A stretch of 64,000 nucleotides of DNA from Mobula hypostoma (taxonomy: Eukaryota). Below the pieces are notes generated by a model that was given only the letters and a program-made list of their open reading frames with translations, was not told where the DNA came from and ran no database searches. The position numbers were made by a program, and so were the translations under genes. The first letter of the stretch is position 1. Each line of letters begins with the position of its first letter. This document shows positions 10,155 through 64,000 of this stretch, in pieces. The stretch lies in NCBI RefSeq assembly GCF_963921235.1, contig NC_086097.1, positions 158,722,001-158,786,000 on the forward strand, given 5' to 3'.

Positions 10155-13100
10155 CATTTCACACTTAACTGGATTGAACTCCATCTGCCACTTCTCAGCC
10201 CAGTTTTACATCCTATCAATGTCCAATTGTAACCTCTGACAACCCTCCACACTATCCAGAACACCTCCATCCTTTGTGTCATCAGCAAACTTACCAACCC
10301 ATCCCTTCACTTCCTCAACCAGGTCATTTCTAAAAATCACGAAGAGTAAGGGTCCCAGAACAGATCCCTGAGGCACACCACTGATCACTGACCTCCATGC
10401 ACAATATGACCCGTCTACAACTACTCTTTGCTTTCTGTGGGCAAGCCAGTTCTGGATCCCATGCCTCCTTACCTTCTCAATAAGCCTTACATGGGGTAAA
10501 TTGTCAAATGCCTTGCTGAAATCCATATACACTGCATCTCCTGCTCTTCCTTCATCAATGTGTTTAGTCACATCCTCAAAAAATTCAATCAGGCTCGTAA
10601 GGCATGACCTGCCCTTGACAAAGCCATGCTGACTATTCCTAATCATATTAACCTCTCCAAATATTCATAAATCCTGCCTCTCAGGATCTTCTCCATCAAC
10701 TTACCAACCACTGAGGTAAGGCTCACTGATCTACAATTTCCTGGGCTATCTCTACTCCCTTTCTTGAATAAAAGAACAACATCCGCAACCCTCCAATCCT
10801 CCAGAACCTCTCCCATCTCCATTGATGATGTAAAGATCATCGCCAGAGGCTCAGCAATCTCTTCCTTCGCCTCCCACAGTAGCCTGGGGTACATCTCATC
10901 CAGTCCCAGCGACTTATCCAACTTGAAGCTTTCCAAAAGCTCCAGCACATCCTCTTTCTTAGTATCTACATGCTCAAGCTTTTCAGTCTGCTGCAAGTCA
11001 GCACTACAATCACCAAGATCCTTTTCCACAGTGAATACTGAAGTAAGGTTTTCATTAAGTACCTCCACTATTACCTCAGGTTGCATACATACTTTCCCAC
11101 TGTCACTTGATAGGACCTATTCTTTCACGAATTATCCTCTTGCCCTTCACATACTTGTAGAATGCCTTGGGGTTTTCCTTAATCCTGCCTGCTAAGGCCT
11201 TCTCATGGTCCATTCTGGCTCTCCTAATTTCCTTCTTAAGCTCCTTCCTGCTAGCCTTATAATCTTCTAGATCTCTAACATTACCTAGCTCTCTGAACCT
11301 TTTGTAAGCTTTTCATTTCTTCTTGACTAGATTTATTACAGCCTTTGTATACCACGGTTCCTGTACCCTACCATAACTTCCCTGTCTCATTGGAACGTAC
11401 CCATGCAGAACCCCACACAAATATCCCATGAATATTTGCCACATTTCTTCTGTACTTTTCCCTGAGAACTTCTGTTTCCAATTTAAGCTTCCAATTTCCT
11501 GCCTAATAGCATCATAATTCCCCTTACTCCAATTAAACACTTTTCTAACTTGTCTATTCCTTTCTCTCCCCAATGCTATTGTAAAGGAGATAGAATTATG
11601 ATCACTATCTCCAAAATGCTCTCCCACTGAGAGATCTGACACCTGACCAGGTTCATTTCCCAATACTAATTCAAGTACAGCCTCTCCTCTTGTAGGCTTA
11701 CCTACATATTGTGTCAAGAAACCTCCCTGAACACACCTAACAAACTCCACCCCTTCTAAACCCCTTGCTCTAGCGAGATTCCAATCGATATTTGGGAAAT
11801 TAAAATCTCCCATCATGACAACTCTTGTTATTACACCTTTCGAGGATCTGTTTTCCAATCTGCTCCTCAATATCCCTGTTACTATTGGGCGGCCTATAAA
11901 ACACACCCAGTAAAGTGATTGACCCCTTCCTGTTACTGAACTCCACTCACAGAGACTCAGTAGACAATCCCTCCATGGCGTCCACCTTTTCTGCAGCCGT
12001 GACACTATCTCTGATGAACTGTGCCACCTCTTTTGCCTCCCTCCCTGTCCTTTCTGAAACATCTAAAACCCGGCACTTGAAGTAACCATTCTTGTCCCTG
12101 AGCCATTCAAGTCACTGTAATGGCCACTACCTCATATCTCCAAGTACTGATCCACGCCCTAAGCTCATCCGCTTTGTTTACAACACTCCTTGCGTTAAAA
12201 TAGACGCATCTCAAACCTTCAGTCTGAGCGTGCCCCTTCTCTATCATCTACCTATGCTCCCTCTCATACTGTCTACAAGCTTTCTCTATTTGTGAGCCAA
12301 CTGCCCCTTCCTCTATCTCTTCAGTTAGGTTCCTTCCCCCCAACAATTCTAGTTTAAACTCTCCCCAGTAGCATTAGCAAACCTCCCCGCCAGGATATTG
12401 GTCCCCTTGCGATTGAAGTGCAATCTGTCCTTTTTGTGTAGGTTACACCTGCCCCAAAGAGGTCCCAATGATCCAGAAATCTGAATCTCTGCCCCCTGCT
12501 CCCAATCTCTCAGCCACACATTTATCCTCCACCTCATTCTATTCCTATTCTCACTGTCATGTGGCACAGGCAGTAATCCCAAGATTACTACCTTTGTGGT
12601 CCTGCTTCTTAACTTCCTTCCTAACCCCCTGTAGTCTGTTTTCAGGACCCCTTCCCTTTTCCTACCTATGTCGTTGGTACCAATATGTACCACGACATCT
12701 GGCTGTTCTCCCTTCCGCTGCAGGATACCTTGGACGCGACCTGAAACATCCCGGACCCTGGCACCTGGGAAGCAAACTACCATCCGAGTTTCTTTCCTGC
12801 ATCCACAGAATCACCTGTCTGTCCCCTTAACTATAGACTAACTATCACTACTGCTTTCCTCTTCCTTTCCCTACCCATCTGAGCCACAGGGCCAAACTCT
12901 GTGCCAGAGGCACGGCCACTGTCGCTTCCCCCAGGTAGGCTGTCTCCACCCCCCCCCCCCCCCAGCAGTACTCAAACAGGAGTACTTATTGTCAAGGGGT
13001 ACAGCCACAGGAGTACTCTCTAGTACCTGACCTTTCCCCTTCCCCCTCCTGACTGTGACCCACTTGTCTGTCTCCCGTGGCCCCGGTGTGACCACCTGCC

Positions 13101-16309: not shown

Positions 16310-16497
16310 CAGATATGAGGAAGTTTGCATATGCTGGAAATCTAGAGCAGCAGACAAGATGGTGGAGGAACTTAGCAGGCATCATCTGTGGAGGGAAATA
16401 GTCAACATGTTGAATCAAGACCCATCATGGGGACTCATTAATGATGTCCATTCCCTCCATAGATGCTACCTGATTTGCTGAGAACCTACAGTGTTTG
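16310..16497. repeat. Fold-back PLE-derived element (old)
   Basis: CAGCAGG..CATCTGTGGAGGGAA / TTCCCTCCATAGATG..TGCTGAG inverted arms; flanking GTGTTT(T)CTCAGA direct repeats. Confidence 0.55.
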
Positions 16498-16506
16498 GTG
16501 TTTCTC

Positions 16507-17990
16507 AGAATCAGAATTTGATTGATTACCACTAACTTCTATGACATGAAATTTGTTGGTTTGTACCAGCAATACAGTGCAAAGACATGAATCTACTTTA
16601 AATATAAAATAAAAAATGGATAAAAAAGAATCATGTGGTCAGGTTCGTGGGTTTATGGATCATTCAGAGATCTGATGGCAAGGTGGGTGAAGCTGTTGCT
16701 GTAGTTTCTCCCTGATGGTATTAATGGGAAGAGGGCATGTCTCAGATGGTGGGGTCCTCAGCGATGGTTGCTGACTTCTTGAGGCACTACATCTTGAAGA
16801 AGGTGAGAAGGGTTGTTTCTGAGTCAGAACTGGCTGAGTCTACAACTCTTTGCAGCTTCTTGCAGTCCTGTGCATTATTGGCTCAAGCCAGGCTGCTAAG
16901 CAACCAGTCAGAATGCTCTCCACTGTACATCTATAGAAATGTCTTTGGTAACTACCAAGCCTCCTCAAACTCTAAACAAAGTAGAGCCTCTGGTACATCT
17001 TCTTTGTGATCGCATTAGTAGGCTGGTTCCAGACTAGATCCTCCAAAACGCTGATGCCCAGGAACTTGAAGCTGCTTTCCCTTTACACACTGATGTGTGT
17101 TCTCCTTACTTTCCTCTCCTGAAATCAACAATTAATTCCTTGGTTCACTGATGTTGTTTATGAAGTTCTTGTTGTGACACCACTCAACTGGCCAAACTAT
17201 CTCACTCCTGTACACCACTTTGTCACCATCGGAGGTTTTCCCAACAACAGTGGTGTTATCTGTAGATGATGTTTAAGCCATGCCTAACCACACAGTCGTG
17301 ACTGTAGAGAGAGTAGTGCATTGGACTAAGCATGCATCCTCAAGGTGTGCCTGTTTTGTTTGCCAGTGCTTAAGAGATCTTATCACCAATCCATATTGAC
17401 TGTGGTCTCCCAATGGGAAAGTTGATGATCTAGTACAAAGACCCATGTTTTGAAGTTTTATGGTTAGTACTGAGAGGATGATGGTGTTGAAACTGCAACT
17501 GATATAAAGTAGCCTTGCATAGATTCTGATGTCATTTAGGTGCTCCAAAGCCAAGCGGAAAGCTAATAAAATTGCGTCTATTGTAGACCTGTTGTGGCAA
17601 TAGGTGAATTACGGTGCATACTGGTCCTTGCTGAGGCAGAAGTTCATTCTAGCCGTAACCAGCCTCGCATATGCTTTATCACAGTAAATGTGAGTGCTAC
17701 CAGGTTGGAGTTATTAAGGCAGTTCACACTGCTCTTCTTGGGCACGGGTATAATTGATGCCCTTTTGAAGTGGTGAGAGATTGAAAATGTCCTTGAACAC
17801 TCCAGCTATTTGGTCATCACAGGTTTTCAGTGTCCTGCCAAGTACACCAGCAGGACCTGGTGCCTTCCAAGGGTTCACCCTCTTGAGGGAATGTTCTGAC
17901 ATTGGCCTCTGAGACAGAGATCACAGGCTTTATGGATGTTGTGGGCTTTCACGTAGGTATAGTGCTAAACTCCCTTTCAAAGTGTACATA
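16507..17990 (-). mobile_element. Rex1/Babar-like LINE fragment
   Basis: [37 protein letters not shown] and YARLL..SFNTII motifs; (TCTGAT) tail. Confidence 0.8.
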
Positions 17991-23259: not shown

Positions 23260-24979
23260 CAGTGCTTATAAAAAATATTCACCCCCCCCCCCCACCCCGG
23301 AAGTTTTCCTGTTTTATTGTTTTACAACGCTGAAACACAGTGGATTTAATTTGGCTTTTTTTCAACAGGAAAAGACTCTTTGGTGTCAAAGTGAAAACAG
23401 ATCTCAACAAAGTGATCTAAATTAATTGCAAATTTAAAACATAAAACACAAAATAATTCATTGCACAAGTATTCACCCTCTTTAATATGACACACCAAAT
23501 CATCACTGGTGCAGCCATTTGGTTTTAGAAGTCACATAAATAGTTAAATGGATATCACCATGTGCAGTCAAGGTGTTTCAATTGATTCTCGTAAAAATAC
23601 ACCGATATCTGGAAGGTCCATCTGCTGGTGAGTCAGTATCCTGGCTAAAACTACATCAGGAAGACAAAAGAACACTCCTAGCAACTCCGCGTAAAGGTCA
23701 TTGAAAAGCACAAGTCAGGAGATGGATACAAGAAAATTTCCAAGTCACTGAATATCACTTGGTGTACAGTTACAGGGTATGTCAATCATCAAGAAGTGGA
23801 AAGAATAGTGCACAACTATAAATCTGCCTAGAGTAGGCCATCCTCAAAAACTGAGTGACCGTGCAAGAAGGGGACTATTGAGGGAGGCCACCAAAAGATC
23901 TATGACAGCTCCGGAGGAGTTACAAGCTTCAGTGGCTGGGCTGGGGGAGACTGCACATATAACAATACACAACAAGCTGGAGGGACTCAGCAGGTCGGGC
24001 AGCATCCGGGGAAACGATCAGACGACGGTTTGGGCTGACCTGCTGAGTCCCTCCAGCTTGTTGTGAGTGTTGCTTTGACACCAGCATCTGCAGATTATTT
24101 TGTGCATACAACAACTGTTGCCCAGATGCTTCACCTGTCGCAGCTTTTTGTGAGTGTGGCAAAGAGAAAACCACTGTTGAAAAGATTCACATGAAATCTC
24201 AGCTAGAGTTTACCAGAAGGCATGTGGGGGACTCCAAGGTCAGCTGGAAGAAGGTTGTATGGTTTGACGAAACCAAAATTGAGCTTTTAGGCCACCAGAC
24301 AAATCACTATGTTTGGCATAAAGCTTGGTGGTGGCAGCATCATGCTACAGGGATGGTTCACTGCAGCTAGCTCTGGAAGGCTTGTGAAGGTTGAGGGTAA
24401 AATGAATGCAGCAAAAGGCAGGGAAATCCTGGACAAAAACCTGATGCAGTTTGCAAGAGAACTGTGACTTGGGAGAAGGTTTGTTTTCCTGCAAGACAAC
24501 GACCCAAGCATAAATCCAAAGCTACACAAGAATAGCTTAAAAACAACAAAGTTAATATCTTGAAGTGGCCAAGTCAGAGTCCAGACCTCAATCCAAATGA
24601 GTGTTTGGGGCTAGACTTGTAATGGGCTATTCTGTCATCATCCCCACAGTTTTGTAAAGAAGAATGAGGAAAAATTGCAGTGTCCAGATGTGCAAAGCTG
24701 ATAGAGACCTATCCACACAGACCCAAGGCTGTAATTGCTGCCAGAGGTGCCTCTGCTAAATACTGACTAGAAGGGGATGAATGCAATCAATTATTTTGTG
24801 TTATGTATTTATAATTAATTTTGATCACTTTGTAGAGATCTGTTTTCACTTGAACATAAAAGCGTCTTTTTCTGTTGAACGGTGTGAAAAAAGCCAAATT
24901 AAATCCACTGTGATTCAATGTTGTAAAACAATAAAACATGAAAACTTCAAAGGGAAATGAATACCTTTTATAGGAACTG
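23260..24979 (+). mobile_element. Tc1-like (Passport-like, IR/DR type) DNA transposon, decayed
   Basis: TA TSDs; ~200-bp TIRs beginning CAGTGCTTATAAAA; transposase remnants KTKEHS..KSGDGYKKISKSLNI, WFDETK, QDNDPKH, WPSQSPDLNP. Confidence 0.9.
23966..24104 (+). mobile_element. 139-bp fold-back PLE-derived insertion in the Tc1
   Basis: Arms CACAACAAGCTGGAGGGACTCAGCAGGTC / GACCTGCTGAGTCCCTCCAGCTTGTTGTG plus tail; TSD CATATAACAA / CATACAACAA. Confidence 0.85.
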
Positions 24980-32238: not shown

Positions 32239-34956
32239 TATTGTGTGCAGTTTTGGTCACCTACCACAGGAATGAAGTAAATAAGATTGTAAGAGTGCAG
32301 AGAAAGTTTGCAGCTTTGTTGCCAGGACTTGAGGACCTGAGTAAGGTTGAACAGAATGTAGAAAATTGAGGGAAGATTTGATGGAAGTATACAAAGTTAT
32401 AAGGGATGCAGATAGAGTAAATGCAAGCAGCCTTCTTCCACTAAGATTGGGTGAGACTACAACTAGAGGTCATGGGGGGTTAAGGGTGAAAGGTGAAATG
32501 TTTAAAGGGAACATGAAAGGGAACTTTTTCACTCAGGTTGGTGAGAGTGTGGAATGAGCTGCCAGTGCATGTGGTGGATGTGGTATTGATTTCAAAATTT
32601 ATGAGATGTTTGGATAGATACATGGATGGAAGGGAAATGGAGGGCTATGGTCAAGGTGCTGGTTGATGGGACAAGGCAGATTAATGGTTCAGCATGGACT
32701 AGATGGACCAAAGGGCCTGTTTCTGTGCTGTAGTATTTTATGACTTTTTGACCCCTGTCTATCTCTCTACCTCTCTCTGTATCTCTCCCTTTCTGTCTGT
32801 ATCTTTCTCTCTCTCCCCCTTCCCTCCCTCCCTCCCTCACTATACGAGTATGGCATTCAGGCTGAATTTACTGGAACATTCAAACAAAACTTTCTCAAAA
32901 GGAGAGACATGGGCAGATGCAGGCACAATCACGTTTACCTCACGTGAGATGTCCTGGGTTTTCTGCGGAGTGTCTGAGAATAGAAAGAATAGGCAAGAGG
33001 GAAAACAGAATGTACACAGTGTGAGCATTTACTACATGACTTCATTTTGCACATTGTTTGTAGATGAAGAGTCAGTTCTAAACTTGTTTGTTTTCAATGT
33101 TTAACTCTTTGCTGATTTCAGCAGCATTTAGTAATGTTAAGCAGATAACCATTCTCGCGATTTGAGTTTTGCAACGTTGATCTCCAACAAATGAATTCTT
33201 TCCTTGATACTATCCAAGATAATCTCAGTTGTGATGCTAAAGATCATTATAGTAATTTTAGTGTTAGATTTTCAAAAGTAGACATGTTTTGATTTATTGG
33301 TTTGCAGAAGTAGATAAATCTTACAGATTCAAGTCAATCAGGTAATCTTTTTCCATAGTGTTATTGCATTTGCTTTACCTTCTAGTATAGCCCTTAACCT
33401 GTCATTAATAAAGATGCAAGAATAATTAGAATTCTAGATTGTAGTGCCTCACAAAGACCGGTTTATTGTTCATCTTTACCTAATGGTTGTGATTTGCATC
33501 TTTTTTAAAGATGCAATAGAATTATTGATTCATTGCTTGAAAACAAGCTTCCCTTCTATTGAGTAAGGTTTAACATTAGCTTATTTTGATTGCTAAATGC
33601 TTTAAATATGTTGGGAAGATGCATATACTTAACAAGGCAAAAAGTAAAAGTTAAAAAAGTGCAGAGTTATTGCTTTTAACACATTTGCACCATTGGAACT
33701 GAAGTGCCTGTATGAAGCCTTGTTTTAGTTATCTGTGGTTGACTGGCCTGATGGTAATAGGGGTTAAGGCCCATATTACTTATGCCTTTGGCCTATCCAT
33801 TTCAGGAACAGGAATGCTATCTGCAACTGCTCTGAATGTCACAAAAACTGTCTCAGCATATGGATAGTAGAGAGAATTTGGCCTTTTAAACTTCAATTCT
33901 ACCTTTTATATGTGGAAGTGTTCATTATATTCATTTAGGCTTACAGTGTTGTGCTTCACTTACCTTTGGATTTCAGGCTCAAGTCCCTAGAATTATTTTG
34001 AGAATTAGTGACCACAAATACTATTCAGATGCAGGCATCCAAGTTCATAAAGTTCAACGAGGATGCAAAATTCCACAACTGCATTACAAATTTGTAAAAC
34101 TATCTCTTCGGACCAACTTCATCCAGCTTTGTTCCTTTTATACGAAATTGGTGATGTCCATTTAGTTTCCTTAGAGAGCTTCATCGTATTGAAAATGAGT
34201 GTTACTTAACATCCTTTGGTCTTTGCTGGAATGGAAACATAATGTCACGTTTCCTTTCTGAGCATTTTGTTTACATATTTATCCAGTGAATGCTGATTTA
34301 AAATTATTACAAAAAATTACTTTGTCTTGCAGATTTATTGAAACAGATAGCCTTTCGCAAACACCAGTGAACTAAACTACCCATTACATCAAGTTCCTTA
34401 AAATTCAAATTGTATTAAGTATCCCTTTGGGATTAGTTCCTTATTTTCCATCAGAATGTGCTGGTGAGAGGCCTAGTGATGGTCGCTCACACTGACTAGC
34501 AAGTGCTGGTGGTTAGATTGCCTTGCTGCAGATGGTCATTGCTTGGTACTCTACTGTGTGGATGTTAATTGTCCCGGATTCATGCCTAGATGTGGTCTAG
34601 GTCTCACTGCATGTAGACATGGAGTGCTTAATTTGCTGAGGAATTGTGAAGGATGACTAGCTATAACAGTGTCAGTCAAACAGAAAACGAAAATAAGCTT
34701 GACAGGTCAACATGGGATTGTCCGTAATGGGGCATTTTTATTTCTAATATTCTGCTCACACATTCTATAATGCCACAATTCCCTCAGCAAATATTGAAGT
34801 AACACTTATTGTAAGTTTCTTTCCAGTTTCATTCCGGCTAAATTCCAGTTTCCAGTGGCGCCATTAAGAAGGCAACTTGTGCCTGCAGCTCCGGTAGAAA
34901 TCTTCAGGTATTCCCATTTTAGTCTGCTACAGCTGAAGTTCACAGTTACAACCATG

Positions 34957-35106
34957 GACTGTTAACTGTCGGGCCAAGACCCTTCTGCAGGAATGAGTCC
35001 AGCTGGAAATGAGTCCTGTTGAAGGGTCTCAGCCCAAAACATCGACTGTACTTCTTTCTATAGATGTTGCCTGGCCTGTTGAGTTCCTCCAGCATTTTGT
35101 GTGTGT
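34957..35106. repeat. Two divergently oriented degenerate hammerhead/PLE ends
   Basis: Minus copy 34957-34993 (CCTGCAGAAGGGTCTTGGCCCGACAG) and plus copy 35012-35049 (GTCCTGTTGAAGGGTCTCAGCCCAAAACATCGACT) plus tail. Confidence 0.65.
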
Positions 35107-35107
35107 T

Positions 35108-35830
35108 ACAAAAAGAGTAAAATGAGGGGACACATGCCAGTCTTCTTTGAGGGATCAGAAGTGGAAAGGGTGAGCAATTTCAAGGCCCTGGGTGTCAACG
35201 TCCCTGAGGATCTATCCTGGGCCCAAGGTATTGATGCAATTACAAAGAAAGCATGACAGCGGCTACTTTTCATTAGGAGATTTGGTATGTCACCAAAGAC
35301 ATTCACAAATTTCTACAGATGTGAGTGCATTCTAACAGAATGCATCACTGTCTGGTATTGGGGGCCACTGCACAGGATCGAAATAAGCCGCAAAAAGTTG
35401 TGAAGTCAGTCAGCTTCATCATGAACACTAGCCTCACCATCATTCAGAACACCTTCAAGGAGCAGTGCCTCAAAAAAAGTGCCGTCCATCATTAAGGACC
35501 CCCATCACCCAGGACATGCCCTCTTCTCATTGCTGCCATCAGGGAGGAGATACAGGAGCCTGAATGCACACACTCGACGATTCAGGAATAGCTTCTTCCC
35601 CACAGCCATCAGATTTCTGAATGGACATTGGACCCGTGAACACTATCTTACTACTTTTTTTCTCTTTTTGCACTACTTATTTAATTTAACTTTTTTAAAA
35701 AAGTGTAAGAACTTCTTACTGGAATGTACAGTTTTTATTATTATCTGTTTCAAGGTACTGCTGCCACATAGCAACAAATTTCACAACATATGCCAGTGAT
35801 ATTAAACTTGATTTTGATTTTGGTTCTGAA
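35108..35830 (+). mobile_element. Rex1/Babar-like LINE 3' fragment
   Basis: SIIKDPHHPGHALFSLLPSGRRYRSL..RFRNSFFPTAIRFLN. Confidence 0.85.
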
Positions 35831-50726: not shown

Positions 50727-50895
50727 CAACACAAAATAATCTGCAGATGCTGCGGTCAAAGCAACACTCACAACACGCTGGAGGAACTCAGCAGGTCAGG
50801 CAGCATCCGTGGAAACGATCCGGCCCAAATGGTTGACTGATCATTTCCACGGATGCTGCACGACCCGCTGAGTTCCTCCAACATGTTGTGAGTGT
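50727..50895 (-). mobile_element. 169-bp fold-back PLE-derived insertion
   Basis: Arms AACACTCACAACA..CAGCATCCGTGGAAA / TTTCCACGGATGCTG..TGTTGTGAGTGTT; 15-bp TSD TACAATTATTATCAA / TACAATTATAATCAA. Confidence 0.85.
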
Positions 50896-51307
50896 TACAA
50901 TTATAATCAAAATACATTATACAGCCTTGAGATTTGTCTCCTAATAGACAGCCATGAAACAAAGAAACACAAAAGAACCCATTATAAAAAGGGAGGCCAT
51001 CAAACACCCAATATACAGAGAGAAAAATCACAAATAAAGCAAACAATAAACACAAGCAAATAGCATTCTGAACTGAAGTCCACAGAGAGTCTGTCCCCAG
51101 ACATTGACTTCAGCGCAGAGCGGAACAGTGAGTTGAACTGGCCCATCACTTAATGCGGTCCCAACATTTTGACATTTTCAATCTGGCCTGGTGTTTAGAT
51201 CATCGTCTAAATGTTGGGTTCAGTCGGTTTGGTACGCTTTGGAGCCTGGACCCCGCCACCTCAATTCGGCTTGTGCCTGACCTTTCTGATTTGGCCCCCG
51301 GCACTTA

Positions 51308-55557: not shown

Positions 55558-56441
55558 CAAGATGGCGCCAGTGTACAACGCTCCCTCAGTCGAAGTCTTC
55601 CAGACAGCAAACAAAAATAGATTTTTTTAACTTCTTTTACATCTGTTTTTCACCGTAAATCTGTTTCTGGAGCTGCTAGAGCCTGCGATTTCCACCTTGG
55701 AGATGATTTAAGTGATTCCGTGCTTTGCTGGCTCCACGAAGGTTCTGGGAAACAGGCGTGTTCTTGGATGGTGTCAATGTGAAGAAACTTCGAGACAGGG
55801 CGCGAGCCAATGTTCAACCCCATTTTGCCATTTAAAGCCTCAAGGAAGATTGAGACATTGAGGTGAATACAGAGGCGAGCAGGAGTTTCAGCACTGACTG
55901 CCTATTTTTTGATCACTGCCAGAGAAGGAGTCTGTGAGTGGCCTGTTGCTATGTGCTCACTGTGGCAGGTGAGAAGGCCTCTCTGCCTCAAGTGATGTCC
56001 CTGTCCCTCAACGAACATCAGTGACATCGTAGGATGCTATTACATTCTGCGCTTATTGATTGGACTATTACATTTATGGACTGTGGACTTTTTCAGACTT
56101 AAGTTTTTCATATTCTGTGTTTTTTTTAATTACCTAGTCCTTTTCGGTTTTGTTGTGCGAGGGGAGGTGTTTAGCAATTGGTGTTCTGTTAATTTTTTGT
56201 GTGGGGAGGGTTGTTTTTTTGGGGGGACGATGTTCCTGTTGCGTTTTGTGCAGGGCGAGGGTTTTTTTTTGAGTTTTTAGGAGGGGTTGATGATTGGGAA
56301 GTTGTGCTTTTTTTGTACAGGGTGGGGTTTGATGTTACGATCTGAATGACTTCCATGTTCTTTCTTTGTTTCGTGGCTGTCTGGAGAAACACAGTTGTAT
56401 AGGGATACACGCTTAGATAATAAATGAACCTTTGAACCTTT
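55558..56441 (+). mobile_element. Non-autonomous retroposon with YY1-motif 5' end, G/T-rich body and Rex-like tail
   Basis: Starts CAAGATGGCG and ends ATAATAAA-TGAACCTT-TGAACCTT; relatives at ~50700-51300 and 56760-57870 (minus). Confidence 0.55.
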
Positions 56442-56804
56442 TCTTTATTTAGAGACGGAATCTGTAAGGTCTCCAACAGCCACCCAGGAATGAACAACAG
56501 TTGTGAACTTATATGAACCGTGCACCACTTCCCATGCTGATAATTAAAATTTTGGCTAAAATATCTTGAAGTATACAGTTTAATGATGCAAAATGTGAGA
56601 ATGAGAAATAGGAGCAGGGATATATTATTTAGTCTGTGAAGACTGCTCCATCATTTAACAAGATCTCAGCTTGTCTTCCTCTTCAACAATTTTTTTCAGA
56701 TTCAGATTTATTTATCACATGTACAGTACATCGAAACATAGTGTGATATGGTTCAGAAAAGGTTCAAAGTTCAAAGGTTCATTTATTATGAAAGTATGCA
56801 TGCA

Positions 56805-57382
56805 AGTTCCAAGGTTGTCAAGCCAAGGACTGGTAGTGGGGACAAGCTCCCACTATCTAAAAGTGCTCCTCACGGCATGCATCTCAAATAGCCTCTGACA
56901 ACCAAGTCCAACTCCTGGCCTTCTCGTGTGGCTTAGCCTCTAAGCCCGGCCGAACTGTTTCTACTGACAGGAGAAGGGGCGAAGGCGGGTCCTGGCGCCT
57001 TAAAACCAGTGCTTCGGGTGGATGGAGCTCGTCAGCCTGGGAAGGGAGTCCATCTAAGAGAGGAAAGCTCTGATTTCAAACCTCTGCTGCCTTGCGGCCA
57101 TACCCACTCATGGGAGGGGCTTCAAGAGTAAACCCTGAGGCAAACCCGGAGCTGGAGTTACTAAGGCATTCCGATGTTGCCTACAACCTCATTCTGGCAA
57201 TTCCTGCAATAACACTGGTGCCAAGCTGTATCAGCCCTTGCCCTTCCCTTGGACAACATCAGTGTCGTGGAGAGGGGAGACTTGCTGCATGGACAACAGC
57301 TGGTCATCCATACAACCTTGCCCAGGCCTGCGCCCTGGAAAGACTTTCCAGGCACAGATCCATGGTATCGCTAAACTAACAG
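56805..57382 (+). mobile_element. RTE-type non-autonomous retroposon (5' UTR-like, highly structured)
   Basis: GC-rich hairpin array; approximate TSD ATGCATGCA / ATGTATGCA; 3' part matches 7630-7743. The RTE assignment is from recalled similarity. Confidence 0.55.
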
Positions 57383-60188
57383 ATGTATGCAGTATACAAC
57401 TCTGAAACTGACCCTCTCCAGATAGCCACAAAACACAGACAAACCGTGGAAGTCAGTTGAGAGACAAACAGCAACCCACTCCCCCTGCACATAAAAGAAC
57501 GGCAACAAGATCATCAAACCCGAAACCTCCCCTCCCTCCGCATAAAACTCAACAAGAACATTGGCCCCGAAATTCCCCTCTCTTGGCACAAAAAACTAAC
57601 AAAAACGCAATAAGAACATCGACATGTCAAACCCCCTCCCCCACACACAAAATGCAACAAGGATATCAACCTCCAAATCCGCCTCTCCCCGTAGAAAAAA
57701 ATAACTAAAAATGCAACAAGAACATCAACTTTGGACCCCTCCCCTCCCAAACACAAAATACCACAAGAATGTTGACCCCATAAATCCCCCTACCCCCACG
57801 TAAAAAATGAGAAAGAATGGGCAAAAACACAGAATATTAAAAACTATATGATTGACAAAAGTTCATAGCCTACATAGAACATACATAGAATAGTACAGCA
57901 CAGTACCGGCCCTTTGGCCCACAATGTTATGCCGACCCTCAAACCCTGCCTCCCATATAAGCCCCCACCTTAAATTCCTCCATATACCTGTCTAGTAGTC
58001 TCTTAAACTTCACTAGTGTATCTGCCTCCACCACTGACTCAGGCAGTGCATTACACGCACCAACCACTCTCTGAGTAAAAAACCTTCTTCTAATATTCCC
58101 CTTGAACTTCCCACCCCTTACCTTAAAGCCATGTCCTCTTGTATTGAGCAGTCGTGCCCTGGGGAAGAGGCGCTGGCTATCCACTCTATCTATCCCTCTT
58201 ATTATCTTGTACACCTCTATCATGTCTCCTCTCATCCTCCTTCTCTCCAAAGAGTAAAGCCCTAGCTCCCTTAATCTCTGATCATAATGCATACTCTCTA
58301 AGCTAGGCAGCATTCTGGTAAATCTCCTCTGTACCCTTTCCAATGCTTCCACATCCTTCCTATAGTGAGGGGACCAGAACTGGACACAGTACTCCAAGTG
58401 TGGCCTAACCAGAGTTTTATAGAGCTGCAACATTACATCGCGACTCTTAAACTCTATCCCTCGACTTATGAAAGATGATACCCCATAAGCTTTCTTAACA
58501 ACCCTATCCACCTGTGAGGCAACTTTCAGGGATCTGTGGACATGTAGCCCCAGATCCCTCTGCTCCTCCACACTACCAAGTGTCCTGCCATTTACTTTGT
58601 ACTCTGCCTTGGATTTTGTCCTTCCAAAGTGTACCACCTCACACTTCTCCAGGTTAAACTCCATCTGCCACTTCTCAGCCCACTTCTGCATCCTATCAAT
58701 GTCCCTCTGCAACCTTTGACAATCCTCTACACTATCTACAACATCACCAACCTTTGTGTCGTCTGCAAACTTGCCAACCCACCCTACTCTCCCCACATCC
58801 AGGTCATTAATAAAACTCACGAAAAGTAGAGGTCCCAGAACAGATCCTTGTGGGACACCACTAGTCACAATCCTTCAATCTGAATGTACTCCCTCTACCA
58901 CCACCCTCTGCCTTCTGCAGGCAAGCCAACTCAGAATCCACCTGGCCAAACTTCCCTGGATCCTATGCCTTCTGGCTTTCTGAATAAGCCTACCGTGTGG
59001 AACCTTGTCAAATGCCTTACTAAAATCCATATAGATCACATCCACTGCACTACCCCCATCTATATGCCTGGTCACCTCCTCAAAGAACACTATCAGGCAT
59101 GTTAGACACGATCTGCCCTTCACAAAGCCATGCTGACTGTCCCTGATCAGACCATGATTCTCTAAATGCCCAGAGATCCTATCTCTAAGTATCTTTTCCA
59201 ACAGCTTTCCCATCACAGACGTAAGGCTCACTGGTCTATAATTACCCGGACTATCGCTACTACCTTTCTTGAACAAGGGGACAACATTCGCCTCCCTCCA
59301 ATCCTCCGGTACCATTCCCATGGACAACGAGGACATAAAGATCCTAGCCAGAGGCTCAGCAATCTCTTCCCTGGCCTCGTGGAGCAGCCTGGGAAATATT
59401 CTGTCAGGCCCCGGGGACTTATCCGTCCTAATGTATTTTAACAACTCCAACACCTCCTCTCCCTTAATATCAACATGCTCCAGAACATCAACCTCACTCA
59501 TATTGCCCTCACCATCAAGTTCCCTCTCATTGGTGAGTACCGAAGAGAAGTATTCATTGAGGACCTCGCTCACTTCCACAGCCTCCAGGCACATCTTCCC
59601 ACCTTTATCTCTAATCGGTCCTACCTTCACTCCTGTCATCCTTTTTTTCTTCACATAACTGAAGAATGCCTTGGGGTTTTCCTTTACCCTATTCGCCAAG
59701 GCCTTCTCATGCCACCTTCTTGCTCTTCTCAGCCCCTTCTTAAGCTCCTTTCTTGCTTCCCTATATTCCTCAATAGACCCATCTGATCCTTGCTTCCTAA
59801 ACCTCATGTATGCTGCCTTCTTCCACCTGACTAGATTTTCCACCTCACTTGTCACCCATGATTCCTTCACCCTACCGTTCTTTATCTTCCTCACCGGGAC
59901 AAATTTATCCCTAACATCCTGCAAGAGCTCTCTAAACATCAACCACATGTCCATAGTACATTTCCCTGCAAAAACATCATCCCAATTCACACCCACATGT
60001 TCTAGCCTTATAGCCTCTTAATTTGCCTTTCCCCAATTAAAAATTTTCCTGTCCTCTCTGATTCTATCCTTTTCCATGATAATGCTAAAGGCCAGGGAGC
60101 GGTGGTCACTGTCCCCCAGATGCTTACCCACTGAGAGATCTGTGACCTGACCCGGTTTATTACCAAGTACTAGATCTGGTATGGCATT

Positions 60189-60609
60189 AACATCGACTTC
60201 TCTAACTTTCGCTAATGCCCCACCTCCCCCTCGTACCCCATCTGTTATTTATTTTTATACACACATTCTTACTCTCACTCTCCTTTTTCTCCCTCTGTCC
60301 CTCTGACTATACCCCTTGCCCATCCTCTGGATTCCGCCCCCCCCCCGTCTTTCTCCCCAGACCTCCTGTCCCATGATCCTCTCATATCCCCTTTGCCAAT
60401 CACCTGTCCAGCTCCTGGCTCCATCCCTCCCCCTCCTGTCTTCTCCTATCATTTTGGATCTCCCCCCTCCCCCTCCCACTATCAAATCTCTTACTAACTC
60501 TTCCTTCAGTTAGTCCTGACGAAGGGTCTCGGCCTGAAACGTCGACTGTACCTCTTCCTAGAGATGCTGCCTGGCCTGCTGTGTTCACCAGCAACTTTGA
60601 TGTGTGTTG
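60189..60609 (+). mobile_element. 5'-truncated Penelope-like element inserted in the young CR1
   Basis: Begins with the ORF C-terminus (G)INIDFSNFR*, then polypyrimidine tract, hammerhead and tail; flanked by TGGCATT (60182-60188, 60610-60616). Confidence 0.85.
60512..60547 (+). ncRNA. Minimal type-I hammerhead ribozyme, consensus core
   Basis: AGTC-CTGACGA-AGG-GTCTCGG-CCT-GAAA-C-GTC-GACT with palindromic ACGT in place of helix III. Confidence 0.8.
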
Positions 60610-62766
60610 TGGCATTCTCCCTAGTCGGCCTGTCCACATACGGTGACAGGAATCCGTCCTGGACACGCTTAACAAACTCTGCCCCATCTAAACCCTTGGA
60701 ACTAATCAGGTGCCAATCAATATTAGGGAAGTTAAAGTCATCCATGATAACTACCCTGTTATGTTTGCACCTTTCCAAAATCTGCATCCCAATCTGCTTC
60801 TCTGTATCTCTGCTGCTATCAGGGGGCCTATAGAATACCCCCAGTAGAGTAACTGCTCTCTTCCTGTTCCTGACTTCCACCCATACTGACTCAAAAGAGG
60901 AACCTGCTACATTACCCACCCTTTCTGTAGCTGTAATAGTATCCCTGACCAGTAATGCCACCCCTCTTCCCCTTTTTCCGCCCTCTCTATCCCTTTTAAA
61001 GCACTGAAATCCAGGAATTATTGAGAATCCATTCCTGCCCTGGTGCCAGCCAAGTGTCTGTAATGGCCACTACATCATAATTCCATGTACGTATCCAAGC
61101 TCTAAATCCATTAATGCAGAAAACCTCAGTAAGATACTCCATCATCTCGAAAGAGAGAAACCTAGAGAGTTACCATTGGGGCACAGGACTAGGCCATACA
61201 GCCTCCCCTCTCTAGCAGCAGAGTATCCGACCAACGATAAGAAGGCAGACAGTCAGTCCTTGCCCTCTTCATTTGCCTCAATGTTTCTATCTCCCTCGTC
61301 GCTTGAATCGGCGAAATAGAGTCCTGCAGCCCAACCTCCTCATCTTGAGGCTCACACGTGCTGCCTCCGGGAATGCTCTTGGAAACGGCAAAGCATTGAA
61401 TCACCCAAATGATCTCCAAACTGCAAATTGCAGGCTCCAACAGTTCCAGAAGCACACTCAAGATGAAAAACAGACAGAAAAGAAGTGAAATAAATAGTTA
61501 AGTGGTCTATCCAGAAGATGTTGACCGAGGAGACATTATATGCGGGTGCCATCTTGACCTGAAGACTTGTGTTGTTTGCATTAACACGATGGATGTGCTG
61601 GGGGCCACCTGCAAGTGTCACCACATATCTGGCATCAACATAGCATGCCCACAATGTTCAACAGAACAATACAAGCAGCAGCAACAACAGCAAAACAAAA
61701 CAACAGGACAGCAGTAAAACAAATCCCATACCCACCCTCCCACTCATGGATAACAGACAGGCCTCCAACTCCAAGTCAAGCCACCTCCAATCCTTGGCTC
61801 CACTCTCTCAGACTCGCTGACATTGGACCTCCAGTTTCCAGTCCTGGGCCCGGATCCATGGATTCACAGAGTTGCAGCTATTGGGCCTCTACTCTCTGGA
61901 CAAATCGACCCAGGGGTTTCAACATTCGGGCATCTAGCTCCAGACTTGCCAACTTCAGTCTTTGATCTTCAGGAATCTGCCCTTGGACTTGCTCTGGATT
62001 TTGACCCTCAACCTGGCCTGCCTGAGTTCACCAACCTCGGGTTATCGGCCACAGAACTCTCCAATTATGGGCTTGACCTTCCAGTCTTGACTTCCAAACT
62101 TGCAGTCTTCCAATCCCAGTGACCTGGGGTGGGGGTGGGGTGTGAGTCACTGGGATTTGTGTCTCCCGCCTGTACAGACCTCTGATCTGGGACCTGGGGG
62201 TTGCTCGTCTCCTCACCTGCCGGCTTGACCTCCGCAATTACTGACCTGTGACCAGGGATTCTGAATGCCAACTCCTGCCCTGACTCTTTATTTACTGTCC
62301 CTGGCTACTAACTTTCCCTCATCCTGTTCCTAAACTCTAACCTGACCCCTAACTCTCCACACTGTTCCAAAAACCATTGCTGTGAATGAAAATTTTCTAC
62401 CTTTGCTCACATCCCTCAAATTTAGGGAAAGCAAGTTATGGATATTTGAAAGCATAACAAAAGTCTTATGTTGTGGATTCCCAAAATTTTTAATCAAGTA
62501 GTTCTGTATCAATATTAATGAAGTTACTGGCCATAATGATACATGGTAGTAAGAACAAATGACTGGAAAAGAAGAAAGAAAATTGGAGAAAAATTCAATA
62601 AATCTCAAAACCTTCTTTTGAGTTTTTTTATTGAATTGTTGTAAACAGAATTGGGGTGGATCACATTCTTTCTTCCATTATTCTAAAGCTGCATCAAGTG
62701 CAGGATTGGCTGATATTTAAGATTTGTTTGTGCCCTGCCTGTCTTATAGGTTACACTACATTTATA

Positions 62767-62900
62767 AATGCAAGAGATTCTGCAGATGTTGGAAATCCTG
62801 AGCAACATGCACATAGTACTGAAGGACCTTAGCAGATCAGGTAGGACTTAGGGAAATTAATAAATAGTCAACATTTTGGGCTGAGACCCTTCTTCAGGAC
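62767..62900 (-). repeat. PLE 3' fragment with degenerate hammerhead
   Basis: Minus strand GTCCTGAAGAAGGGTCTCAGCCCAAAATGTTGACTA plus tail. Confidence 0.7.
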
Positions 62901-62921
62901 ACTATGTTTATATTGAATATA

Positions 62922-63450
62922 CACTCATTGGCCACTTTTTTAAGTACATCCTGTAGTAGTTCGTAGTCTACTGTGGCTGTAGTACATTCACTGAAAGGTT
63001 CAATGTGTTTGTTCAGAAATGCTCTTTTGCAACCACTGTTGCACAATTTCCTATTTGAGTTACCATCACCTGTCAGCTTGAACCAGTCTGGCTATTTTCT
63101 TTGACATCTCTCCTTAATAAGGCATTTTCACCCACAGAACTGCCGCTCACTAATTTTTTGTTGTTTTTTTGCATCATTCCCTGTAAACTCTAGAGACTGT
63201 TGTGCATGAAAACCACAGGAGATCAACAGCTTCTGTGATGCTCCAACCAGCCTATCTGGCACCAACAAGCATTTCACATTAAAGGTTCCTCAATCACATT
63301 TCTTCCCCTTTTGGATGTTTGGTCAGAACAACAAGCTAAACCTCTTGGCCATGCTTACATGCTTTTCTGCCTTGAGTTACTACCATGTGATTGGTGGATT
63401 AGATACTTGCATTAATGAACATGTGTGCCTACTGTGTAAGTAGCCACTCT
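62922..63450. mobile_element. Tc1-like MITE remnant
   Basis: TA|CACTCATTGGCCACTTT..AAGTACA left TIR; degenerate right TIR TGTGCCTA..AAGTAGCCACT. Confidence 0.6.
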
Positions 63451-63505
63451 CATCATATCAAATTGGACTTTAATTGAAGATTGCCTGTATAGGTTGATGA
63501 CATTC

Positions 63506-63552
<47 letters not shown>

Positions 63553-64000
63553 TGAGCACGATGACATTCCTAAGTGTTCTTGATTAGATGTGGTCTGGTT
63601 CTTTGTTAATTATTTTTAGTAATCTTATCAAATGTTAGCTAATCATCTAAATCAATTACAGGAAAATTTTATGAAGGTCAACTTTGTTATAATTTATTAA
63701 TGTTTTATTTTGCTCCATACTTACAATTTGATTATATAGTTGAGCATTCGAATGGTTAAAGTTATTTGCATAATGTGTTTCTCAGTACGTTGTAATTCTG
63801 AATAGATAGAAGAGTGGCAGTCTCTGTCAATGTGAAATCATTACATTGAAGTACATTACAGATTGCCAAAATACCAGAGAATCCATATTCATCTGCAAGC
63901 AACTTTGCCAATGTCAAAGTTTGTGTTCAGTCAATAATTATGATTAGTTGTTGTGATTTATTAATACACAATGAGTTTGTTGGCTGCCTTTGTATCAGGA

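What the first reader, a model, noticed from the sequence alone, without database searches (positions are those of the whole stretch)
60189..60616. Intact minimal hammerhead ribozyme in a recently inserted Penelope-like 3' end
Seen: CUGACGA, AGG:CCU, GAAA-C-GUC with helix I AGUC:GACU, about 290 nt after an ORF end GINIDFSNFR*. The insert sits inside the least-decayed LINE of the window, so it is younger still. Established: Penelope-like elements carry minimal type-I hammerheads whose palindromic helix III is completed by dimerisation. Inference: this is a recently active, ribozyme-bearing PLE lineage, and the copy may still self-cleave if transcribed.
Basis: partly seen in the sequence, partly recalled or inferred. 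Interest (0 to 1): 0.72.

Follow-up and report, generated by a model that had tools for sequence, protein, structure and literature searches.

The report
Ray Penelope stump with minimal hammerhead
A 421-base insertion in an older LINE of a likely ray genome carries a tiny hammerhead ribozyme sequence; it is likely the dead tail end of a known kind of jumping gene (Penelope-like) and, alone and predicted to misfold, likely does not cut RNA here, so it is ordinary.

Summary
The hammerhead core is at 60516-60543, the ORF end stops at 60215, and the insert (60189-60609) has a 7-nt target duplication. Leaving it out restores the host LINE frame; the empty site occurs in 3 of 4 runs. It fits the minimal type I hammerhead described for Penelope-like pseudo-LTRs (PMC4209133). 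This scan found the same family many times on other DNA. Corrections: (1) Helix II is better read with the usual extra A (60523) and pairs 60524-27/60532-35. The conserved G10.1-C11.1 pair is then G-U, probably inherited from a subfamily source, so 'intact' holds for the core only. (2) 'Recently active' is not shown: at least 5 near-private changes, and 23 substitutions in 338 columns from its sibling copy. (3) Cleavage here is unlikely: no tandem partner, predicted core-trapping rod, antisense to the host LINE, no host gene found. No covariation among 7 window copies (weak test). The link to a GIY-YIG ORF rests on an upstream extension in reads and a recalled motif; no parent protein was retrieved. 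New member of a known kind; low interest.

The parts
57939..61069 (-). Host LINE ORF2 (AP-endonuclease plus reverse transcriptase; CR1-like by recalled C-terminal motifs), interrupted by the insert
   Evidence: Pfam Exo_endo_phos_2 (below cut-off) and RVT_1; one frame with 2 premature stops in 900 codons when the insert is left out
60182..60188 (+). 5' copy of the 7-nt target-site duplication TGGCATT; also the 7-8 nt microhomology with the element body (60181-60188)
   Evidence: Empty-site joint 60181 to 60610 with 7 letters fitting both sides in X1, X5, X11; family contigs match back to 60181 and then run on unlike the window (table 7)
60183..60215 (+). Last 10 codons and stop of the element's ORF (GINIDFSNFR*), likely the C-terminus of a GIY-YIG endonuclease
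   Evidence: Sequence; loose ends in 3 runs extend it in frame as R-L-G-S-L-Q-P-D (read by eye); the GIY-YIG assignment is a recalled motif, not a database hit
60189..60609 (+). The insert: 5'-truncated 3' end (pseudo-LTR) of a high-copy Penelope-like family
   Evidence: 91.7% identical over 338 columns to the copy at 1-334; 150,634 contigs laid in run X1
60216..60509 (+). Pyrimidine-rich pseudo-LTR body (79% C+T), ending in an acceptor-like pyrimidine tract and CAG
   Evidence: splicing not shown
60511..60548 (+). Minimal type I hammerhead: helix I 60511-15/60544-48, core CUGACGA 60516-22, extra A 60523, helix II 60524-27/60532-35 (first pair G-U), GAAA 60536-39, palindrome ACGU 60539-42, C17 at 60543
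60549..60609 (+). Tail after the ribozyme, ending at the nearer of two family 3' ends; holds a second pyrimidine tract with AG before ATG (60564)
   Evidence: Siblings at 237, 10067, 21410 and 62901 run about 30-40 nt further; 445 loose ends behind 60609 in X1; YAG in 13 of 18 tail copies
60610..60616 (+). 3' copy of the target-site duplication

Best explanation
The 421-nt insert sits antisense in a LINE ORF2 between 7-nt target duplications and holds a minimal type I hammerhead sequence; it is likely the dead, 5'-truncated 3' end of an endonuclease-bearing Penelope-like element, and its lone ribozyme is likely passive cargo that is predicted to misfold and likely does not cleave here. Shown: the insertion, duplication, empty site, high copy number, upstream continuation of the frame in other copies, and core sequence. 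Inferred from PMC11167929 and PMC3846280: the element's GIY-YIG domain nicked the LINE DNA, its reverse transcriptase began copying at an internal site in the tail (60609, the nearer of two family ends), and copying stopped after about 420 nt when the cDNA annealed to the target through 7-8 nt of microhomology. In the source element the hammerhead would cleave after C17 only as a dimer completing helix III (ACGU with ACGU), or with the element's protein. The U at 11.1 most likely arose by CpG deamination in a source copy that went on amplifying, which fits cleavage being dispensable or a G-U pair being tolerated.
For: Empty site with 7 shared letters in 3 of 4 runs; loose ends before 60181 in X1 (78), X5 (59) and X11 (18) share one upstream sequence in frame with the ORF end. 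LINE frame restored. 20 family hits in the window by nhmmer with 0 in the reversed window, 20 by covariance model; only 2 of 12 stretches covering the motif keep the whole core. Architecture matches PMC4209133 point by point: short helix I, extra nucleotide between 9 and 10.1, palindromic 15.2-16.2. Two 3' ends 30-40 nt apart match the PLE tail. A related hammerhead-plus-tail stretch is 74% identical in translation to part of a Mobula birostris predicted protein. Monomer MFE pairs core GACG with CGUC; active dimer -11.5 against -30.3 kcal/mol for the best dimer fold; helix I probability at most 0.002 once 30 nt or more of flank are included. T at 60535 is in both long window copies and C takes only 26-41% of laid depth in four runs, against 8-16% decay at the CpG at 60520.
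Against: No parent RT/GIY-YIG protein or full-length element was retrieved, so PLE membership rests on a short peptide, a recalled motif and architecture. No Rfam match. No covariation in 7 window copies. ViennaRNA does not score the tertiary core, so the fold argument against cleavage is soft. The 7-nt duplication is shorter than the 11 and 14 nt seen for two other window copies. Laid depth is not copy number and favours contigs like the query, so the T share is inflated by an unknown amount. All 13 core positions and an R10.1-Y11.1 pair are present, so some cleavage in vitro as a dimer remains possible.
Confidence: 0.82

Rival explanations
1. One reading: a recently active lineage, and this copy still self-cleaves when transcribed, using helix II AGG:CCU without the extra nucleotide or the G-U register, paired with another copy's RNA in trans.
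For: All core positions present; family very abundant, also in runs guessed to be RNA, so partners in trans are plausible; T at 60535 is the majority letter in laid depth; one contig in X19 matches all 54 bases.
Against: AGG:CCU register predicted at 2% and cannot form in copies with C (4 of 7 window copies); no tandem partner (nearest same-strand copy with a whole core is 60 kb away); antisense to the host LINE; no host gene among the 100 longest of 179 unmasked frames; monomers inactive and dimers weak in PMC4209133; no RNA ends at the cleavage site for the anole element in PMC11167929.
Confidence: 0.1
2. The insert belongs to a non-autonomous, SINE-like or retrozyme-like family derived from a Penelope end and mobilised as its own unit, not a truncated copy of the full element.
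For: Many window copies are short and begin within a few bases of the 5' foot of helix I (loose ends at 60512-14); retrozymes derive from PLE pseudo-LTRs (bioRxiv 10.64898/2026.07.22.740005).
Against: This copy starts inside the ORF, and other copies run on upstream in frame; no tandem array; the 5' junction is a microhomology, as in truncation.
Confidence: 0.06
3. The hammerhead-like string is a relic with no ribozyme role even in the source element, kept because it overlaps splice, promoter or protein-binding signals of the pseudo-LTR.
For: No covariation; amplification with U11.1; acceptor-like sites on both sides of the motif; ribozyme mutants do not affect insertion in vitro (PMC11167929).
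Against: The same core is kept across distant PLE clades, with covarying families (PMC4209133), and the anole motif cleaves with protein (PMC11167929). Compatible in part with the best explanation.
Confidence: 0.1

Closest known systems
Minimal hammerheads (min-HHR) in pseudo-LTRs of metazoan Penelope-like elements, including fish Xena, Poseidon and Neptune (Cervera and De la Pena 2014, PMC4209133)
   Same: Type I core, 4-5 bp helix I, unpaired nucleotide between 9 and 10.1, no helix III beyond a palindrome, position after the ORF stop, mostly single dispersed motifs from truncated copies.
   Different: Helix II is only 4 bp (7-8 in Schistosoma, 6 in D. virilis); the pair 10.1-11.1 is G-U, where the paper calls G-C highly conserved; no cartilaginous fish found in the parts read or in 2 of 3 supplementary files searched.
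PAc, Poseidon element of Anolis carolinensis (Frangieh et al. 2024, PMC11167929)
   Same: Hammerhead near the pseudo-LTR end, two 3' ends 30-40 nt apart; the duplication here ends in ATT, the motif PAc prefers to cut (one case, may be chance).
   Different: In PAc the ORF starts at stem II; here no ORF start was established. No biochemistry exists for this family in the papers read.
Non-LTR retrozymes (bioRxiv 10.64898/2026.07.22.740005; PMC7229834 seen as listing only)
   Same: Type I hammerhead derived from a PLE end; reported in one chondrichthyan genome.
   Different: Retrozymes are tandem arrays with at least two ribozymes; this is a single copy with an ORF remnant and a target duplication.

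Membership tests
Minimal type I hammerhead (min-HHR) | Core C3 U4 G5 A6 N7 G8 A9, G12 A13 A14 A15.1, U16.1 H17 | tested here: met
Minimal type I hammerhead (min-HHR) | Helix I of 4-5 bp and a helix II | tested here: met
   5 bp and 4 bp in the isolated motif; not formed in longer contexts in the same model
Minimal type I hammerhead (min-HHR) | Extra nucleotide between 9 and 10.1; palindromic 15.1-16.1 | tested here: met
   A60523; ACGU 60539-42
Minimal type I hammerhead (min-HHR) | G10.1-C11.1 pair (highly conserved, not invariant) | tested here: not met
   G-U in this copy and its sibling; G-C in 4 of 7 aligned window copies and C in 26-41% of laid depth
Minimal type I hammerhead (min-HHR) | Covariation in helices I and II | tested here: inconclusive
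   0 of 8 pairs with two-sided change in 7 decayed copies; the second read-laying gave no variant table
Minimal type I hammerhead (min-HHR) | Self-cleavage after H17 | not testable with these tools
   needs an in vitro assay
Rfam hammerhead families | Match to a covariance model | tested here: not met
   no hammerhead family at E up to 10; minimal forms likely fall outside these models (inference)
EN+ Penelope-like element | Single ORF with telomerase-like RT and C-terminal GIY-YIG endonuclease | tested here: inconclusive
   only the last 10 codons present; 8 more residues from loose ends; motif recalled; searches for a parent found none
EN+ Penelope-like element | Pseudo-LTR with hammerhead after the ORF | tested here: met
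EN+ Penelope-like element | 5' truncation, target duplication, optional 30-40 nt tail, inverted copies | tested here: met
   head-to-head pairs near 14.5, 16.4, 24.0, 35.0 and 50.8 kb
Neptune clade | RT phylogeny and Zn-finger-like linker | not testable with these tools
   no RT sequence obtained
Non-LTR retrozyme | Tandem units each with a hammerhead | tested here: not met
   no tandem repeat in 56000-64000

The most novel reading that the evidence does not exclude
A major ray subfamily amplified after losing the conserved G10.1-C11.1 pair, and its hammerhead lies between two splice-acceptor-like sites (CAG/TAG at 60509-13 and a pyrimidine tract with AG before ATG at 60560-64). The ribozyme would then sit at the end of the pseudo-LTR intron, with splicing or the element's protein deciding whether it folds, and thousands of copies would act as ready-made acceptors that can be exonised, as one Mobula gene model suggests.
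Probability: 0.13. Interest if true: 0.45.

Novelty: new member of a known kind. Interest (0 to 1): 0.13.

Why it matters
As it stands it matters little: one more dead Penelope end among about 20 family hits in this window. Its small value is as a clean record of insertion (empty site, duplication, microhomology, tail end) and as a natural G-U variant of the 10.1-11.1 pair. If the U11.1 subfamily proves cleavage-dead yet amplified widely, that would be genomic support for the in vitro result that ribozyme cleavage is not needed for Penelope insertion, which bears on the open question of what these ribozymes do.

Tried and rejected
No whole genome is held for this window, so no genome-wide census or parent search was possible. 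Pattern scans found nothing in metagenome contigs, viral contigs or prokaryote genomes. A homologue search with an alternative frame over the ORF end scored none of 17 candidates; a search with a frame over the ribozyme gave 1 of 91 candidates, a Mobula protein with no Pfam domain listed, not a PLE ORF. Motif scans of six frames found no PLE RT or GIY-YIG piece elsewhere in the window; Pfam on the 100 longest of 179 unmasked frames found only other transposons; 79 shorter frames were not scanned. The second read-laying on 60503-60556 returned no variant table, and the two raw-read runs X21 and X22 held nothing, so family-wide covariation and the share of A at 60536 are unknown. No splice joint appeared among the 15 joints shown of 120; runs X11 and X13 are only guessed to be RNA and are contigs, so they show neither expression nor ends. 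My first reading, that U11.1 is private CpG decay of this copy, was dropped: both long copies share it and it is the majority letter. An exact TACTAAC before the first acceptor-like site was set aside because 60496-97 vary widely in the family. The count was off by one base and is replaced. Literature searches for the effect of a G-U at 10.1-11.1 and for the GIY-YIG end motif gave nothing usable.

Full report
Observation. A strict descriptor finds 2 such motifs on both strands of the window, at 241 and 60516, against a mean of 0.02 in 100 shuffles. Rfam has no hammerhead match at E up to 10 in 56000-64000, and the motif is no more stable than its shuffles.

The insertion. The insert is 60189-60609, flanked by TGGCATT on both sides. 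Contigs of 3 of 4 laid runs join 60181 to 60610 with 7 letters fitting either side; these are most likely other copies of the LINE without the insert. Leaving the insert out gives one minus-strand frame of 900 codons with 2 premature stops and no frameshift, with Pfam RVT_1 and a sub-threshold Exo_endo_phos_2 match. The other LINE copies found by tblastn have frame changes or more stops, or are short pieces. So the insert is younger than the best-preserved LINE, and antisense to it. The label CR1-like is recalled from C-terminal motifs and comes from no call.

The family. nhmmer finds 20 hits in the window and none in the reversed window; a covariance model built from 7 of them finds 20. Run X1 alone lays 150,634 contigs on the 601-nt stretch (not a copy number). 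Twenty of 24 listed runs hold the sequence or a part, among them runs of five organism labels with shares of 0.35-0.89. A frame over the ribozyme and tail is 74% identical over 42 residues to part of a Mobula birostris predicted protein, which places the family in rays. Upstream of 60181, loose ends in X1 (78), X5 (59) and X11 (18) share a sequence that continues the frame as R-L-G-S-L-Q-P-D (read by eye). I recall this kind of ending as the C-terminus of Penelope GIY-YIG domains; no call confirmed it, and no parent protein was retrieved. The family matches the window back to 60181, so the whole duplication is also microhomology. Siblings at 237, 10067, 21410 and 62901 run about 30-40 nt past 60609, the optional tail of PLEs (PMC8557442 passages; PMC11167929).

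Helix II. In the isolated motif it is predicted at 2%, against 96% for 60524-27/60532-35 with A60523 unpaired. The second reading is the published pattern: a nucleotide between 9 and 10.1 (PMC4209133). It also works for copies with C at 60535 (4 of 7 aligned copies). In it the first pair is G-U, not the conserved G-C, and the hairpin is 2.6 kcal/mol weaker. U is shared by both long window copies, and C takes only 26-41% of laid depth in four runs, while the CpG at 60520 shows 8-16% decay. U11.1 is therefore probably a subfamily trait (about 0.8, inference), though laying favours contigs like the query and 42 of 82 variant rows were not shown. No pair covaries among the 7 copies (0 of 8); this counts against function only weakly, as 10 of 12 stretches over the motif have a broken core.

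Age. Among the 40 rows shown, 5 insert positions differ from at least 90% of laid depth in X1 (60271, 60331, 60336, 60415, 60481), as do 3 in about 170 nt of LINE flank. The sibling at 1-334 differs by 23 substitutions in 338 columns. The copy is young for this window, but present activity is not shown.

Mechanism. Shown: insertion, duplication, microhomology, truncation, core sequence. Inferred from PMC11167929 (parts 1-2 of 4 read) and PMC3846280 (passages): endonuclease nick, reverse transcription starting inside the tail with no homology to the target, early stop by annealing at the 5' junction. The ribozyme was copied as part of the pseudo-LTR. Here it has no tandem partner, lies antisense to the LINE, and no host gene was seen in the 100 longest of 179 unmasked frames. 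The monomer is predicted to pair core GACG with CGUC; the active dimer scores -11.5 against -30.3 kcal/mol for the best dimer fold, and helix I falls to 0.002 or less with flanks. These models ignore tertiary contacts. Published minimal hammerheads did not cleave as monomers and cleaved weakly as dimers (PMC4209133), and the anole motif needed the element's protein and was dispensable for insertion in vitro (PMC11167929). I put meaningful cleavage of this copy in vivo at about 0.1.

A side lead. Helix I begins at an acceptor-like site in three upstream variants (window, and loose ends in X1 and X19), as the D. virilis intron end does in PMC4209133. A second pyrimidine tract with YAG lies 20 nt after the cleavage site in 13 of 18 tail copies (this copy has GAG there and TAG 2 nt before). 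The match in the Mobula protein begins at about the first site. Copies share descent, and no splice joint was seen, so this is untested. An earlier scan note had raised the first acceptor.

Prior knowledge. Papers: PMC4209133, parts 1-2 of 4 and a search of 2 of 3 supplementary files (no shark or skate terms; the unsearched file may list fish motifs); bioRxiv 10.64898/2026.07.22.740005, part 1 of 5, passages and Discussion (one chondrichthyan genome with retrozymes; supplements not seen); PMC6155905, PMC8557442, PMC3846280, PMC544870 and PMC2837043, passages. Searches turned up no description of this ray family; the one paper with hammerhead ribozyme, Penelope and shark uses shark only for the motif's shape. 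The library lacks most subscription papers and repeat databases were not searched. The scan itself noted this family in 29 findings from at least 16 genomes and repeatedly in this genome; these are unchecked AI notes.

Verdict. Real, correctly classed, ordinary: new member of a known kind, interest 0.13.

Noticed in passing
window:1-372: Sibling copy of the same subfamily, cut by the window edge, with a whole core, U11.1, C15.2 changed to U and the longer tail.
   Followed up: yes
window:10058-10165: Tail-only piece of the same subfamily inside the second LINE copy, with an 11-nt duplication CATTTCACACT.
   Followed up: partly
window:62753-62912: Minus-strand older copy with a 14-nt duplication (2 mismatches that look like opposite CpG decay) that starts at the foot of helix I; G12 changed to A.
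   Followed up: partly
window:998, 14558, 16435, 21410, 35012, 36600, 52295, 62901: Many short copies begin within a few bases of the 5' foot of helix I, not at the cleavage site (loose ends at 60512-14). Unexplained; may partly reflect different upstream subfamilies.
   Followed up: partly
window:14356-14679, 16324-16519, 23961-24095, 34954-35116, 50739-50903: Head-to-head inverted pairs of the hammerhead/tail family, a known PLE arrangement.
   Followed up: no
window:63499-63559 (-): 5' part of a U6 snRNA (Rfam 46.8 bits, above cut-off; model positions 1-59), likely a retroposed pseudogene.
   Followed up: no
window:1925-5233 (-): Broken Ty3/Gypsy-type pol (protease, RT, RNase H, integrase) with premature stops and an inserted stretch.
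   Followed up: no
window:8092-12810 (-): Second, more decayed LINE of the host's type with an upstream GDSL-esterase frame at 12352-12810.
   Followed up: no
window:31157-31468 (+): CENP-B N-terminal domain match, likely a Tigger/pogo DNA transposon remnant.
   Followed up: no
P0001 residues 150-181: A Mobula birostris gene model contains the hammerhead and tail in sense translation, starting near the acceptor-like site; real exonisation or prediction artefact not known.
   Followed up: partly
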